DNA of 64,000 bases from the human T2T-CHM13v2.0 reference genome, Homo sapiens. Each line of letters begins with the position of its first letter. Position 1 is the stretch's first letter. The translations under genes were made by a program, and so were the position numbers. Where the stretch lies: assembly GCF_009914755.1 (NCBI RefSeq), contig NC_060925.1. The stretch is one strand, 5' to 3'. The notes under the pieces are model-generated. The model searched no databases. It had not been told where the DNA came from and saw only the letters and a list, made by a program, of their open reading frames with translations. Below are positions 50,714-60,529 of this stretch, one piece after another.

Positions 50714-53700
50714 GGAACTGGTGGCTCCACCAGACCCAACGTGAGAGACCCAGGAAGGAAGAGAAGCCAGATGGCCCCAGGTGTCGTTCTCACTGTACAT
50801 AGCGGCCGCAGGCTGAGGATGTCCCTTGCTCCTGGGCAAAATCCCGATGGACTCTGCGGTTTCAGCTCCACAGCGCCCAGGAGAGAGAAGACACCAGCCC
50901 ACCTGTCTTGGGTGGGCCATGGACTTTCCTGTTCAGCTGGAGATGGGCCCAGAGGACCTGTCACAGTGTCCGGCCCTGCCTCCATCCAGGATACACAGGC
51001 TCCACCTCAGAGTGACCGTCACTGTGGAGCAGCCAAGCAGTCCCTGGAGCCTTAAACGGAGCTGCCAAGGTGGGAGGAGGCCCACAGTTCCCTAAAACAC
51101 CCTTCCGGCGGGAGCAGGGGGGACCCCAACCCCACACCCCAGCGCCCAGTGCATTGGCAGAGCCGGGTGCAGGAAGTGCTGCCTCTTGCCGAGACGTCGG
51201 ACAGGGCGGGGGTTGGGGAACTCTCGGCTACAGCATCTTACCCTTGACTGAGAACTTGGGTCCTGACTTGGCTCACTGAATCTCTCTTGGGAGAATGCAA
51301 AATCCTTCCACCTGAAAAGCTCTGTGACACATGGGGGTGGACGTATTGAAGAGCTGTTTGCCGATCCACCCAGGAGTGGCTACGCTGAGTGGGGAGCCGG
51401 TGAATGATCCGTGCAGGAGTGGGGCTTAGCAGCCACATTTCTAGGAGATGCAGATATCCTATCACCAGAATGAAAGCTATTGGGACAACAGGATCGGGGA
51501 TGACCGACGGCCCCATATGGTGAATCTCTGGCCTGTGGTTTGGCTTTACTGAGATTCCAAACCCCACTATCTGCACTCCGTGACAGTGGTATGGAGTGTG
51601 GCAATGAGTTTGGGGTCTGGGGCAGGGAAATGCTTGACATTGTTAACCCAACAAACCTTTGTTGTGATGTCCCTGTCACCTGAAACATAGGTGACATAGC
51701 TCACCAATGTCCTAACCGAGACACAAACTCCACAGAGCAAAATCATTTGGTATTGGTGGGGAGAACCCCAGCCCTTTTCTTGACCTGCCACTGTTATGCT
51801 GTGTGGCTTCTTCCCAGTGGCCTCACCTCTCTGTGCCTCGATGTCTTCATCTACGATACTTCTGGTTCCCTCCCAGGGACATCGTGAGGATTAACACTTG
51901 CTAATATCTGTAACACAATTTGTAACCTCTCAGGAGACAATGGGAAGTTATGGGGTAGCTAATTTCCCATTTACAACACAGAAATGATATAGAGCTAGTT
52001 CGCTCCAACTCTTTAGGTTGAAGCAGTGTGCAAAAGGAAGAAAAGAAATGTTTAATGTTCAGACCTGCCAAGAGCCTCCAACAGGGCTCAAGAAACATAT
52101 AAATCCCATGAGCACAGCCTTGAAAACCAGTTTGACTCAAGCCTTCGGGCCTCAGTTCATTGACCAGATGACAGCCACGTGATGATTAGGGAAGGACGGA
52201 TGCATTGCGATTCTGCTTACACATCGGGTTATCAAAGCGAGTCACTTGTTGGAACCATGATGCTCGACCTCCTTCAAGGCCGTTTGCACTGGGGCTTGAG
52301 TTTCCAAGATTCACAACAGGTGTCAGCCTCTGAGAACCCTCAAAGCGTGTGTTCTTCAACCTGGCAAATTGTTTCCTCTCATGGGGGAAGCCGAGCTCTG
52401 ATGAACTTGAGAATTACACCTCTCTCATGCCGAAGACCGTGGTGTTCCCCCTAATGACATAAACGCAGCCTTTCTTGCTGTCTGAGACCAAATGTCTAGT
52501 TGGTAGACAGGTGGATGTTTGGCCTCCTAAGGGCACACTTCTGATCCTGGGCCCCAGGTGGTGAATCTCTGGCATGTGGCTTGGCTTTGTTGAGACTCCA
52601 AATTCCATTATCTTCATGACATTCGGCCTCATCCATAGGGTCCTGAAGCTGCAGTCCACAGCTCAGAAAGGAGAGGTGAGACCTCCCTCCAACCTGGTGC
52701 CACAGGTCTCTCCCAAGCCACATCCAGCCTGGATGACCTGGGACCCCAGAAACTGCCGTTTGGGAGGCAGCAACAGCAACGTGCCCAGGCAGGCAGTTAT
52801 TCCCACAGAGTGAGCCAGAATTGTAGCAGGGCACTTGAATGCAGAGCTGATGATTTGAAACCAACGTTCACCCAACTTGTCAGAAATGGCACTTACATGG
52901 TTCGATCTTGCTGGAGACAAGTGGACAATTGGGGGTCACTGGCAGAGACGGTATTGCCCAAAATGTTCACAGCAGGAGGCCAGCAGGCCTGAGGCAACAC
53001 GGGCAACCGCGAATGCCTCTTTTGGTTTAAATTATGCCATCACAACCCTCTTTCACCCATGAGGCTCCCCATCCCTGACAGCCAGGTGAGCATTTGGAGC
53101 TGGTTTCTCAACATGAGGATGGGTTGGTTGTTAAATTAACAACCTCCACAGTATCAGATTGAGTGAGCTTTGTCTGCTGGAAAAACCTGAAACGTCAACT
53201 CTGCTTCAAGGTCGGCAAGAAGAACAGAAGGCGGAGACTTGGCAGAGAGACTCAAGCTGATTGTCACAGGCTACAGAGGGGCCAGCTCCAGAACAGTGAC
53301 CAGCTACATCCTGTCCAAGCAGCCCGAGTGTGGTCTTGGTCCCTGCAGGGCGATGTGGGCATCTGGACCTGGGGACGATGTGGATGCACTTCTTGGAAAG
53401 CTGTTGTAGCTTGTGCCTGTGGGTGGAGAAGGCACCTGCCTGGTAGACTCTCAGCTTTCTGACCCCCAGGAGCCTCTGCGAGGCCCCTTTGTCCTTGGCT
53501 GAGCCGGACCTTTCTTTTGGAAATCTGTCTGTCTGTTGGCATCGCTGTTTTCAGACCCCAGGCTGCAGAGGAGGGGAGAAGCCACACAACAATCTGGACC
53601 CAATAAAGTGGAGAGAAGGGCGTCTCTACACAGCCCGGCCAGCGTGGAGGGCCCCAGGACAGGGACCCAAAAGCTTGACGTCACTGAACAGGGCTGGGTA

Positions 53701-55745: not shown

Positions 55746-57206
55746 AACTGTAGTAAGTCTTGACAGCAGAGGTAGCTGGTAGTCAGAGGGCTTTTCATAT
55801 CTTTTCACATGGGGGATTTAATGTAGAAAAGAGAAGGTGAGGCCTGGGTGGAGGGGAGTTCAGCAGGTGGAGAGGATTCTAGACAGGATGAACAGTGTGC
55901 AAAGGTCCTGTGGCAGGAGGGGCAGAGCCCCACGGCTACAAAGGACCCCCTGAGGCTGGAGTGCTGGGGGTGAGGGTACCATCTCCTGAGGGTAAAGAAG
56001 GGGCACCAGGCAGATCCTCTGCTGGGCCTCTGCCCCCTCCCAGGACCCTCGACCTGGCTCCCGTACATCTGTGTCATCCCAGATGCAATTAGTGCTTCCT
56101 AAGTGCTACACCTGGACATGAGGCCCCGCCTTCTGCAAATGGTTCGCTCTTTCCCTTTGCTCTGGCTCATGGCTAAATCAGATTTATCAGGCTACAGCCC
56201 AATGCAAGGGACCCATGAGGTGGCACTAGGGTAGCCAGGGCACAACTGATTGGCTGCCAACTAAGGTGTCAGGTAGAATCTGCCCAAGATGCCTGTTTTC
56301 AGCCATGTTGGTTGCAAGTTGTGCCGCTGATTCCCAGTGGCAGGGAATGAAGCTGGAGAGGAGCTTCATCAAACCGGTGGGAAATGCCCAGCTCCCCTCA
56401 ATTCACTTGAACCAAGCAGGGCTTCTTTCTGTGGTTGATCTCCGGCACCCCAGGCAGCCCTGGCATTGAGGGGAGTCAAGAAAGGAAGACCCGGCCCCCA
56501 AGGAAGGGTAGAGCCTCGTGTGGGATGGAGGTGAGGGGCTGGGTCTCCCTTAGTCTTTCTAAGCCTCACAGTGCACCCCCCAGGAGGAGAGGGCTGAGTC
56601 CTCCTAATAATTGGCAGCTAAGATTCTATGCATATGTTTGTTCCAACCACTTACCGTATGCTGAGGCTTTGCACAAGTATCTCTTTTAATCCTAAAACCA
56701 TCTGGAGGGGTTCATGCTATCACTATTTTCCTGATGAGAGTCGGTGAGTGAAGGAGCTCTCCCAAGTGTTCACTGCTAATAGAGCCAGAATTTGAACTTT
56801 GGCTGCATTAACCCTATTCTGCCGGGCCCCATCCCCTCCAGCTGCCTCTCGGATGAGGACTTACATCCCAGAAGGGCTCCTCAGCAGAGCGCAGATGGAT
56901 CAGTTCATCTCAGTGTTTGACTAATCGCCCTTGAGGAGTCTTACGCAGTCCCACCCCATCTCTGCAACATCTCTCTGGACCACGAGAGATCTCCGCTGAA
57001 TTCCAGAGGCTATAATCTGGGTCTCTTCTGAGACATTCCACATTCTCACCTTTGCATTACGGTAATTTGTGGGAGGTCTGTAGGGACTGTGACTGCTCCT
57101 GGACCACATTTCCCAGTGTCCAGCACACTCTTGTTGTCTGTTAAGCAAACGAACAGATAAATATATAAAAATTCACAGAGCAACAGCTGCCCATGGAAGA
57201 TGCTAC

Positions 57207-57421
57207 CCTGCTGTGCCGGCCAATATGGCAGCCACAGGCAACACGTATTTACTCAAATTATGAATTAAAATTAAATTAGAATTTAAAACTCCATTCCTCA
57301 GTCACACTAGCCACATTTCAGGTGTTCTATAGCTACATGTGGCTAGTGGGTGGCTGCTGTACCAGACAGAACAGATACAGAACATCCTCTTTGTCACAGA
57401 AAGTTCCACTGAACAGTGCTG
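57207..57421 (-). mobile_element. MER3-like hAT element
   Basis: ccaatatggcagccac...cctcagtcacactagccacatttc...cagaaagttcc...cagtgctg. Confidence 0.8.
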
Positions 57422-57577
57422 CCTCATAGCATCCAGAGGGGATTGAGTTTATTATACAAGCCCTGCCCTCAAGAAACTTCCAATCTGGCTAATGAGGAAA
57501 AAAAAAATAAGGCTGCAGGAAAACATAAATAGAAAAACAAAAGACCGTAGGGCAGGTAGAATTTCTACATGAGCCAG

Positions 57578-58160
57578 TGATATAGTTCGAATATTTGTCC
57601 CTGCCCAAATCTCATGTAGAATTGTAATCCCCATTGTTGGAGGTGAGGTCTGGTGGGAAGTGATTGGATCATGGAGGCCAATTTCTTTTTCTTTTTCTTT
57701 TTCTTTTTTTTTTTTTGAGACGGAGTCTCGCTCTGTTGCCCAGACTGGAGTGCAGTGGCATGATCTCGGCTCACTGCAAGCTCCGCATGGAGGCCGATTT
57801 CTAATGAGTGGTTTAGCACCATCCTCTTGGTGCTAGCCTTGTGACAGTGAGTGAGTTCTCACGAGATCTGGTTGTTGTAAATGCTGGCATCTTCTTCCTA
57901 CTTTCTCCTTCTTGCTCCTGCTTTTACCATGTAATGCACAATACATGGTAAAAGCAGGAGCAAGAGAGAGAAAGTAGGAAGAAGGTATCTTCTTTTGCCT
58001 TCCACCATGATTGGAAGCTTCTTGAGGCCTCCCTAGAAGGGGATGCTGGCACCATGCTTCCTGTATAGCCTGCAGAACCATGAGCCAATTAGACTTCTTT
58101 TCTTATAAGTTACCCAGTGTCAGGGATTTCTTTATAGCAATGCAAGAATGGCCTAATACA
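57578..58160 (+). mobile_element. MSTA-like MaLR solo LTR with perfect 5-bp TSD (GCCAG), containing a truncated Alu and a fold-back hairpin
   Basis: tgatatagtt...cccaaatctcatg...gcctgcagaaccatgagccaatt...ctaataca; gccag at 57573-57577 and 58161-58165. Confidence 0.9.
57687..57785 (-). mobile_element. Severely 5'-truncated AluY-like insertion in the MSTA LTR
   Basis: cactgcaagctccgc (Y-type); 17-bp TSD catggaggccaatttct 57670-57686 / catggaggccgatttct 57786-57802. Confidence 0.88.
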
Positions 58161-58859
58161 GCCAGTGACCAGTGACTGAAACCCCACTCAAAGAATGGTT
58201 TGCAAATACAGTAAATGGGAATGAAGCGGCATACGTAAAGAACACTCAAGGTCAACAGCTGGCTTTGGACACAGCTGGCGCCAGGGTGTCCGATGTTGCT
58301 TTCAAGACACTCAGCCTTCTTCACCTCTTGGGTTTGCTATCGTTTATACCAGTTAATTCTCAGACAGATTGTCCCCATTTGTTGGCAAAATGGTCACAAG
58401 ACAAACACTGTCTCAGCCAGCAACCCCTGCACAAGAGAGACCCTCTTGCCAGGCGGTTCTAGCAAAGTCTCAGGGTGGAATCCCATTGGCTTGGATAGGA
58501 TTGCAAACTCACCAAGGGTGGAGGCAGCCCACCCAGGCTTATGGCCTGAGGACACAATGCATGCACGGATTTTCCGCTCTTAAGAGGTGAGAGAACAGCA
58601 GCCCAAGAGCACCCTGCGGCTCTTAGGACGTGCGAAGCCAGTGGATCCTCTAAAGTGGCCCGGCAGGGGCCTCCTCTTTCCCAACACAGGCTTCCTCTCC
58701 CCTGCAGGTGGGGCTGGGCAGGCAGACTCCAGGGGAGAGGAGCCCCCTGATATTCAGACAGGAGAAAAAACTTAAGACCAAGCACCCAGCAGCTCACATA
58801 AGTGCCAGAAAGAGAACTGAGAATTCAGGGACATCCAACCTTGAGCTGAGGACTGATAA

Positions 58860-59240
<381 letters not shown>

Positions 59241-59709
59241 CTGTATGTGTTTTTGCTCATTTAGTCTCCACAACAATCTCGGGTAAGCATTGTTTTCCCC
59301 ATTGGTCAGATGGGAAACTGAGGCACGGAGTGTTCCATAGATTTCCCAGTGTCCCACCTTAGTGAGTGGCAGCTAGGACCTCAGCCTCAGCAGACTGGCT
59401 CTCTGTGGAGTCTGGGCTCGAACCCACTGGGCCATTACAGCCTTGGCCCTAAAGCTGGCTGGTCACACCCAGCTGTTTACAGTAAAATTTCCTGAAGCCA
59501 GATGTCCCCAAGGCGAAAAAGACCTCCTCATTATTAAGTACTGCACGGTTGGAAGCTGGATCCACCCCCTCTGCCTGGAAGAATATTGCTCTGTAAATTA
59601 TAGGCTTAAAGGGTAAAGACAGCCCCATCAGCCCCGTGAGCTCCTGACTTAAAACAAGGTAATAATTTAGGGACTTAGAAAGGTCTGGTTCGGTGAGTAC
59701 TTATAATAG

Positions 59710-60126
<417 letters not shown>

Positions 60127-60529
60127 TGATTCAGGCCCGGCCACTAATACAGCACATTAGCGGCGGTGCCTGGCAGCAGCTGGGTGTGCCAGCCTTCCTC
60201 CCCTTCTAACCAAGGTTGGAGCTGAAAGACCTGGTGGGGCTGACTGTCTGTCACCCAGGCTCTGCCACATACACCAGGCTGTGTGACGTGGGGCCAACTC
60301 CTTACCCTGTCTGAGCCTCGGTAGAGTCGGAGCGGATGTTCTCTGAGGTCTTTTCCCGGCTCTGAAGTGGTAGGTTGGGTGAGGAATGGAGGTGTGGGCT
60401 GGGTGGACAAACCAGGAGGGGTCCCTGTTCTTCCATGTCCCACCTCAAGTCCTAGATAAGGAAGAAAAAGAATGGACACCCTCCTATCACCATGACGCCA
60501 CATGGCCGTCGACAGCCACCACCACTCCA

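What the first reader, a model, noticed from the sequence alone, without database searches (positions are those of the whole stretch)
57891..57984. Near-perfect 94-nt hairpin created by fold-back duplication inside an MSTA LTR (candidate de novo pre-miRNA or cruciform)
Seen: arm 57891-57933 (cttcttcctactttctccttcttgctcctgcttttaccatgta) is the reverse complement of 57942-57984 at 41 of 43 positions, with an 8-nt loop (atgcacaa). As RNA on either strand the stem has one G-U wobble and one mismatch. As I recall the MSTA consensus, it contains the left arm but not the purine-rich right arm, so the hairpin arose after LTR insertion. Established: replication template switching can create such hairpins in one step, a proposed origin for young primate miRNAs. 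Inference: it probably lies within the antisense TMEM51-AS1 transcript and KAZN read-through region, so it could be a Drosha/ADAR substrate or a cruciform-prone fragile site.
Basis: partly seen in the sequence, partly recalled or inferred. Interest (0 to 1): 0.72.

Follow-up and report, generated by a model that had tools for sequence, protein, structure and literature searches.

The report
Backward-copied hairpin in an old LTR
A 43-base-pair hairpin sits in an old retrotransposon remnant inside a human lncRNA intron; it likely arose when replication briefly copied the neighbouring DNA backwards, and it is probably one of thousands of such neutral relics rather than a microRNA.

Summary
The hairpin is real: arms 57891-57933 and 57942-57984 pair at 41 of 43 positions, loop 8 nt, z about -13. 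It lies in a solo MaLR/MST-type LTR (57578-58160; family label recalled) within a TMEM51-AS1 intron. The right arm is a locus-specific insertion: all 38 other copies with usable anchors (of 58) are 35-71 nt shorter here, and its distal 17 nt match the own left arm 17/17 but other copies at most 13/17. That fits a short-range template-switch duplication, possibly with a third switch that recopied 11 nt. Function is unsupported: no Rfam family at gathering score, absent from two novel-miRNA tables, stem longer than the 33-39 optimum, no basal UG, mismatches at positions reported to inhibit Drosha. Published base rate: 57 of 6,054 such hairpins are miRBase miRNAs. It is far shorter and less AT-rich than known fragile palindromes. 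Raw small-RNA, editing and primate data could not be seen. Verdict: correct origin story, ordinary object, most likely neutral.

The parts
57578..58160 (+). Solo LTR of MaLR/MST type (family label recalled), TG...CA ends, 583 nt including two later insertions
   Evidence: Ends and identical 5-bp flanking repeats at 57573-57577 and 58161-58165; dispersed genomic copies at median 81-86%, best 89-93% identity
57687..57785 (-). 5'-truncated Alu 3' piece with poly(A) tail inserted in the LTR
   Evidence: 17-nt direct repeats 57670-57686 and 57786-57802 with one mismatch; 79-92% to other Alu copies in the window; poly-T run
57891..57933 (+). Left arm: native LTR sequence, template of the duplication
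   Evidence: Colinear in other copies, median 32 of 43, best 36
57934..57941 (.). 8-nt loop; orientation relative to the LTR unresolved
   Evidence: Inverted reading better in 16, forward in 7, tie in 13 of 36 copies scored (of 38); sign test p 0.09
57942..57984 (-). Right arm: inverted copy of the left arm, inserted at this locus only
   Evidence: 41/43 to own left arm; missing from 29 of 29 and 38 of 38 anchored copies; distal 17 nt at most 13/17 in 60 other copies
57984..57994 (+). 11-nt stretch that repeats 57886-57896 directly (10/11): possible third template switch; makes a small competing 6-bp hairpin at the base of the stem
   Evidence: Same comparison within each of 38 other copies gives 3-8 of 11; a looser version gives 10 in 2 of 38
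57138..60305 (-). TMEM51-AS1 intron that contains the LTR and hairpin
   Evidence: Hub annotation; GT and AG edges on the minus strand seen

Best explanation
The hairpin is a locus-specific inverted copy of 43 nt of an old solo LTR, likely made in one replication template-switch event after the LTR had inserted, and likely neutral. Shown: the right arm is an insertion absent from other family copies and matches this locus's own left arm better than any other copy seen. Inferred: the polymerase left its template just behind the left arm, copied the left arm backwards (from the nascent or the opposite strand; not resolved), perhaps recopied 11 nt from the base of the arm, and returned; later a two-base change hit, probably, the left arm. 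Inferred: the stem folds transiently in TMEM51-AS1 intron RNA and is degraded with the intron, at most with stray ADAR editing or Drosha cuts, without yielding a functional small RNA.
For: Span between flanking anchors 44-80 nt (median 68.5) in 38 copies against 115 in the window (20 of 58 copies dropped for lack of a colinear anchor pair). In 29 of 29 global alignments at most 14 of 43 right-arm positions aligned and at most 8 matched. Own arm 41/43, other copies at most 38/43; distal 17 nt 17/17 against at most 13/17 in 60 of 65 copies scored. Arm divergence 4.7% (95% CI 0.6-15.8) against 14-19% median copy-to-copy divergence; P(2 or fewer of 43) 0.05 at 14%, 0.007 at 19%. At the two differing positions 16 of 27 anchored copies carry the right arm's letters and 1 the left arm's (11 of 38 had no anchor). 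The pattern matches the four-point model, types 3-2-1-4 or 3-1-2-4 (PMC5453318, passages). 57 of 6,054 miRNA-sized template-switch hairpins in human genic regions are miRBase loci (PMC10710096). No miRNA evidence found.
Against: No primate orthologue could be read, so the pre-event state is inferred from paralogues only. Against the closest copies (7-10% divergence) two differences in 43 are unremarkable (P 0.18-0.41), so arm divergence alone does not prove a post-insertion date, and arms of inverted repeats can be re-homogenised. DNA searches score only the best candidates (8), so a better donor elsewhere is not formally excluded. Neutrality rests on absence of evidence: two larger catalogues were not held, one supplement was unreadable, no raw reads were seen. 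[quoted passage not shown]
Confidence: 0.82

Rival explanations
1. It is a weakly processed proto-miRNA: Microprocessor cuts the stem from the TMEM51-AS1 intron, Dicer trims a roughly 70-nt precursor, and low levels of about 22-nt RNA load on AGO in a tissue not well sampled.
For: Sense-intronic position, as for 81 of 99 intragenic template-switch miRNA loci. CNNC starts 5 nt behind the stem on both strands and UGUG lies in the minus-strand loop. TMEM51-AS1 is reported as expressed in 17 tissues (PMC12102048, one passage).
Against: Stem 43 bp against an optimum of 33-39 or about 35; no basal UG; lower stem fully paired, so no mismatched GHG; with a cut measured from the base the wobble and mismatch fall at positions 5-6, inside the 4-8 zone reported to inhibit cleavage; UGUG is at 32-33 rather than about 22 from that cut; a CNNC in that 3-nt slot has about 15% chance and helps mainly optimal-length stems. 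Not in the candidate tables of PMC4054668 or PMC5630040. Base rate 0.9%.
Confidence: 0.04
2. Its effect is on DNA: the repeat forms a lagging-strand hairpin or cruciform often enough to be a local mutation or breakage hotspot.
For: Stable DNA hairpin, -45.1 kcal/mol; short spacer and high arm identity are the features that raise risk (PMC7999016, passages); the stretch is transcribed.
Against: 94 bp, 41% G+C, 8-nt spacer, longest perfect stem 24 bp, against PATRRs of about 200-595 bp with over 90% A+T. The review cites about 180,000 human palindromes longer than 40 bp. No breakpoint data seen.
Confidence: 0.05
3. The right arm came from elsewhere or earlier: a fragment of a second LTR copy inserted in reverse, or a fold-back made during reverse transcription when the element inserted, with later homogenisation of the arms.
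For: Other copies match loop plus proximal right arm at 84-93% and the arm at up to 38/43. Tail-to-tail LTR ends do make perfect inverted repeats elsewhere (L055). Upper confidence limit of arm divergence (15.8%) reaches copy-to-copy divergence.
Against: The distal 17 nt, in a C/T tract that varies between copies, are identical to the own left arm and at most 13/17 in 60 others; the insert ends exactly beside its template; no flanking duplication typical of an insertion was seen; no second locus with this fold-back in the genome-wide pattern search.
Confidence: 0.06
4. It is a functional double-stranded RNA element, an ADAR substrate whose editing or protein binding affects TMEM51-AS1 splicing or stability.
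For: 43-bp near-perfect duplex with 21 adenosines in the 3' arm on either strand.
Against: Deep in an intron, 754 nt from the nearest splice site; no editing data seen; the one literature search on short non-Alu duplexes gave listings only. Incidental editing would fit the best explanation too.
Confidence: 0.03

Closest known systems
Short-range template-switch mutations, four-point model (Loytynoja and Goldman 2017, PMC5453318; Walker et al. 2021, PMC7954356)
   Same: A reverse-complement copy of adjacent sequence inserted beside its template, making a new inverted repeat and lengthening the locus; types 3-2-1-4 and 3-1-2-4 are 31% and 23% of high-confidence human-chimp events.
   Different: The copied piece (43 nt) is long against a median of 12 and a maximum of 128. 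An 11-nt direct recopy suggests a third switch, which the two-switch model does not cover, though multi-switch cases are reported. The pre-event state is inferred here from paralogues, not orthologues.
Template-switch-born miRNA hairpins (Monttinen et al. 2023, PMC10710096)
   Same: Near-perfect stem from one event, sense strand of a host intron, near a transposon promoter, later mismatches.
   Different: No annotation or read evidence found; it resembles the 6,054 miRNA-sized hairpins, of which 57 are miRBase loci.
Canonical pri-miRNA hairpins (Roden et al. 2017, PMC5340965; Li et al. 2020, PMC7174388)
   Same: Long stem, 8-nt loop, CNNC behind the stem, UGUG in the minus-strand loop.
   Different: Stem 43 rather than 33-39, no basal UG, no lower-stem mismatch motif, mismatches in the inhibitory zone.
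PATRRs and other fragile human palindromes (review PMC7999016)
   Same: Near-perfect inverted repeat with a short centre, in an intron.
   Different: About 2-6 times shorter, 59% rather than over 90% A+T, no known rearrangement.

Membership tests
Template-switch mutation (four-point model) | Inserted segment is the reverse complement of nearby sequence at the same locus | tested here: met
   41/43 to own left arm; distal 17 nt at most 13/17 in 60 other copies
Template-switch mutation (four-point model) | Segment absent from the pre-event sequence | tested here: met
   By paralogue proxy only: absent in 29 of 29 and 38 of 38 anchored copies
Template-switch mutation (four-point model) | Event placed on a branch by orthologue comparison | not testable with these tools
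   No primate genomes held (no relatives)
Template-switch mutation (four-point model) | Event type: loop forward (3-2-1-4) or inverted (3-1-2-4) | tested here: inconclusive
   16 inverted, 7 forward, 13 ties of 36; p 0.09; the 7 further copies all favour inverted but were picked with the loop in the query
Bona fide miRNA (criteria as in PMC9074900) | [quoted passage not shown] | not testable with these tools
   Criteria; no read data. Proxy: absent from candidate tables
Bona fide miRNA (criteria as in PMC9074900) | Member of a described miRNA family or annotated locus | tested here: not met
   0 of 33 Rfam matches reach the gathering score; no miRNA row in the hub annotation
Canonical Microprocessor substrate | Stem length 33-39 | tested here: not met
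   43 bp
Canonical Microprocessor substrate | Basal UG at -14/-13 and mismatched GHG in the lower stem | tested here: not met
   UC (plus) and CC (minus); first 17 pairs fully paired
Canonical Microprocessor substrate | CNNC 16-18 nt behind the 3p cut; loop 8-16 nt | tested here: met
   CNNC at 16 on both strands, loop 8; chance of the CNNC about 15% per strand
Canonical Microprocessor substrate | Apical UGU/GUG about 22 nt from the 5p cut | tested here: inconclusive
   UGUG in the minus-strand loop, but at 32-33 from a base-measured cut; in register only with an apex-measured cut
PATRR-type fragile palindrome | Several hundred bp, over 90% A+T, recurrent breakpoints | tested here: not met
   94 bp, 41% G+C; breakpoints not testable
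MSTA subfamily of MaLR LTRs | Best match to the Dfam MSTA model | not testable with these tools
   No repeat library held; solo-LTR anatomy (TG...CA, 5-bp flanking repeat, many dispersed copies) shown; label recalled

The most novel reading that the evidence does not exclude
The locus is an unannotated primate proto-miRNA born in a three-switch replication event. It is either cut from the TMEM51-AS1 intron or, since the stem starts about 10 nt behind the position where other copies carry a TATA-like word, made as a capped 5' hairpin from the LTR's own promoter in germline or DUX4-expressing cells, tissues that small-RNA catalogues sample poorly. Against: this copy lacks the TATA-like word that 24 of 38 copies have, and only about 1% of DUX4-bound sites start transcripts.
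Probability: 0.03. Interest if true: 0.55.

Novelty: new member of a known kind. Interest (0 to 1): 0.15.

Why it matters
As a neutral relic it matters little: it is a clean example of the raw material from which young miRNAs arise, and it shows that paralogous repeat copies can stand in for an outgroup when calling template switches inside repeats, where one published analysis left repeats out. If it yielded a small RNA it would add one more template-switch-born primate miRNA to at least 18 known; a capped, LTR-driven version would be more unusual.

Tried and rejected
Rfam matches to plant and animal miRNA models (best 62.6 bits against a gathering score of 93) were rejected as structure-only. 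A recurrent fold-back hotspot in this LTR family was not found: one locus with the exact paired-motif pattern, five with up to two mismatches, the four others neither similar to the LTR nor hairpins; the pattern covers only one position and copies that keep both 12-mers. A per-position test for rare letters shared by both arms was weak (one position) and was replaced by the distal-17-nt test. The Alu flanking-repeat offsets printed were wrong and were recomputed. A random genome sample for hairpin frequency could not be obtained; the 69 loci already held (201,109 nt, centred mostly on LTR copies) gave 3 inverted repeats with arms of 20 or more, none longer than 32 bp or with a spacer under 47 nt. 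The great-ape template-switch list (PMC7954356, 4,016 rows) has no row with the expected hg38 digits, but those digits are recalled, so this is weak. Supplements of PMC10710096 (3 files; a fourth too large) had no hit; those of PMC5480830 had no hit and no control hit, so are uninformative; PMC6468295's could not be read. Full-text search for the 12-mer gave 10 papers whose titles are unrelated (listing only). A search for MSTA-derived miRNA hairpins gave 4 listings, none with the term MSTA. Earlier scan findings were not open.

Full report
Observation. Arms 57891-57933 and 57942-57984 are reverse complements at 41 of 43 positions, the two differences are adjacent, and the loop is 8 nt. Both RNA strands fold into the stem with z about -13 and no shuffle of 200 as good; each has one U-G and one C-A at pairs 18-19. 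It is the strongest inverted repeat of the window.

Setting. The hairpin lies in a 583-nt solo LTR, 57578-58160, with TG...CA ends and identical 5-bp flanking repeats. Genome searches returned many dispersed copies, at median 81-86% and best 89-93% identity. I call it MaLR/MST-type from memory; no repeat library was available, so MSTA itself is untested. A short 5'-truncated Alu piece (57687-57785, minus strand) interrupts the LTR between 17-nt direct repeats that differ at one base. By the hub annotation the whole LTR is in a TMEM51-AS1 intron, 754 nt from one exon and 2,322 nt from the other, and 3,770 nt past the KAZN end.

The right arm is an insertion at this locus only. In pairwise alignments with the 29 copies, at most 14 of 43 right-arm positions aligned and at most 8 matched. 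Of 58 copies, 38 gave a colinear pair of flanking anchors (20 dropped); their span was 44-80 nt, median 68.5, against 115 in the window. A paired-motif pattern found only this locus exactly; four further loci at two mismatches were neither LTR-like nor hairpins.

The donor is the own left arm. The right arm matches it at 41/43; the 38 copies reach at most 38 (median 32) and seven copies picked with the right arm as query reach 36-38. The distal 17 nt are identical between the arms but match at most 13/17 in the 60 of 65 copies that could be anchored. At the two differing positions 16 of 27 anchored copies carry the right arm's letters and one the left arm's, so the later change probably hit the left arm. 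Arm divergence is 4.7% (95% CI 0.6-15.8). That is unlikely at the median copy divergence of 14-19% (P 0.05-0.007) but not at the 7-10% of the closest copies (P 0.41-0.18). A post-insertion date is thus likely, not proven.

Mechanism. An adjacent reverse-complement insertion is what the four-point template-switch model yields as type 3-2-1-4 or, with an inverted spacer, 3-1-2-4 (PMC5453318, passages). Loop orientation would tell them apart but is unresolved: inverted better in 16, forward in 7, tie in 13 of 36 copies, p 0.09; the copies vary at this spot in ways that look like CpG decay (seen; interpretation mine), which blurs the test. One detail is new to the finding: 57984-57994 repeats 57886-57896 directly at 10/11, while the same comparison inside each of 38 copies gives 3-8 and the window stretch matches the homologous stretch of other copies at 4-7. 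A looser search gives 10 in 2 of 38 copies, so chance in a C/T-rich tract is not excluded. I infer a third switch, or a small inverted triplication later trimmed; multi-switch cases are mentioned in PMC10710096. The copied 43 nt are long against the ape median of 12, maximum 128 (PMC7954356, passages).

Is it a miRNA? None of 33 Rfam matches reaches a gathering score and the annotation has no miRNA here. A 12-mer present in the hairpin on either strand is absent from all 8 supplementary files of PMC4054668 (the candidate table holds hairpin sequences and an 8-mer control hit 15 times) and from the 11 of 19 files searched of PMC5630040, including its novel-miRNA table (control 8 hits). Two larger catalogues were not held and one supplement was unreadable; they could bear on this. 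The geometry is suboptimal: 43 bp against 33-39 (PMC5340965, passages) or about 35 (PMC7174388, passages); no basal UG; a fully paired lower stem; and, with a cut 13 nt from the base, the wobble and mismatch at positions 5-6, within the 4-8 zone reported to inhibit cleavage. In favour: CNNC at the right distance on both strands (chance about 15% each), UGUG in the minus-strand loop, loop size in range, sense-intronic position, and MIR579 as a miRNA with a 44-nt stem. The base rate decides: PMC10710096 (abstract, results and discussion read in parts 1-3 of 6) counts 6,054 miRNA-sized template-switch hairpins in human genic regions, of which 57 (0.9%) are miRBase loci. The defining read criteria (PMC9074900, passages) could not be tested.

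Is it a fragile site? The DNA hairpin is stable, and short spacers and high identity raise risk (PMC7999016, passages). But it is 94 bp, 41% G+C, with a 24-bp longest perfect stem, against PATRRs of about 200-595 bp and over 90% A+T. No breakpoint data were seen. ADAR editing is plausible for a 43-bp duplex with 21 adenosines in one arm but untested (listing only), and incidental editing would not make it functional.

How rare? No comparable hairpin occurs in 201,109 nt of 69 other loci; three shorter ones with 47-56-nt spacers do. With about 6,000 such hairpins in genic DNA alone, finding one in a 64-kb window is unusual but not surprising (inference).

Most novel reading. Twenty-four of 38 copies carry a TATA-like word just ahead of the arm's homologue; this copy does not. 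MaLR LTRs can act as DUX4-driven promoters in testis and FSHD muscle, about 1% of bound sites starting transcripts (PMC3836709, passages). A capped hairpin from this LTR, or an intronic proto-miRNA, is not excluded; I put it at 3%.

In print. I found no description of this hairpin in the searches (listings) or in the passages and supplements named above. TMEM51-AS1 papers were seen as listings only, apart from one passage of PMC12102048.

Verdict. Observation confirmed; origin by local template switching well supported; function unsupported. New member of a known kind, interest 0.15.

Noticed in passing
window 57687-57785: Short 5'-truncated Alu piece inside the LTR with a 17-nt flanking direct repeat (one mismatch); it carries a word I recall as typical of AluY, so it may be young. 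Whether it is polymorphic is untested.
   Followed up: partly
L055 1263-1367: Two LTR-like 3' ends lie tail to tail and share a perfect 26-bp inverted repeat with a 53-nt spacer; perfect identity could reflect arm homogenisation.
   Followed up: no
L016 2331-2450: Perfect 32-bp inverted repeat with a 56-nt spacer, resembling a palindromic DNA-transposon remnant (label recalled).
   Followed up: no
window 58162-58176: A 7-nt unit repeated twice directly behind the LTR's right end, overlapping its flanking repeat.
   Followed up: no
L050 and L051, between the two anchors: These two LTR copies lack about 16-25 nt just behind the arm homologue, the same spot where the window copy gained its insertion; two of 38, so possibly a slippage-prone site.
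   Followed up: no
window 53107-53163: Weak inverted repeat in the KAZN 3' UTR / TMEM51-AS1 exon overlap (28-nt arms, 71%, exact only at the centre), probably chance.
   Followed up: no
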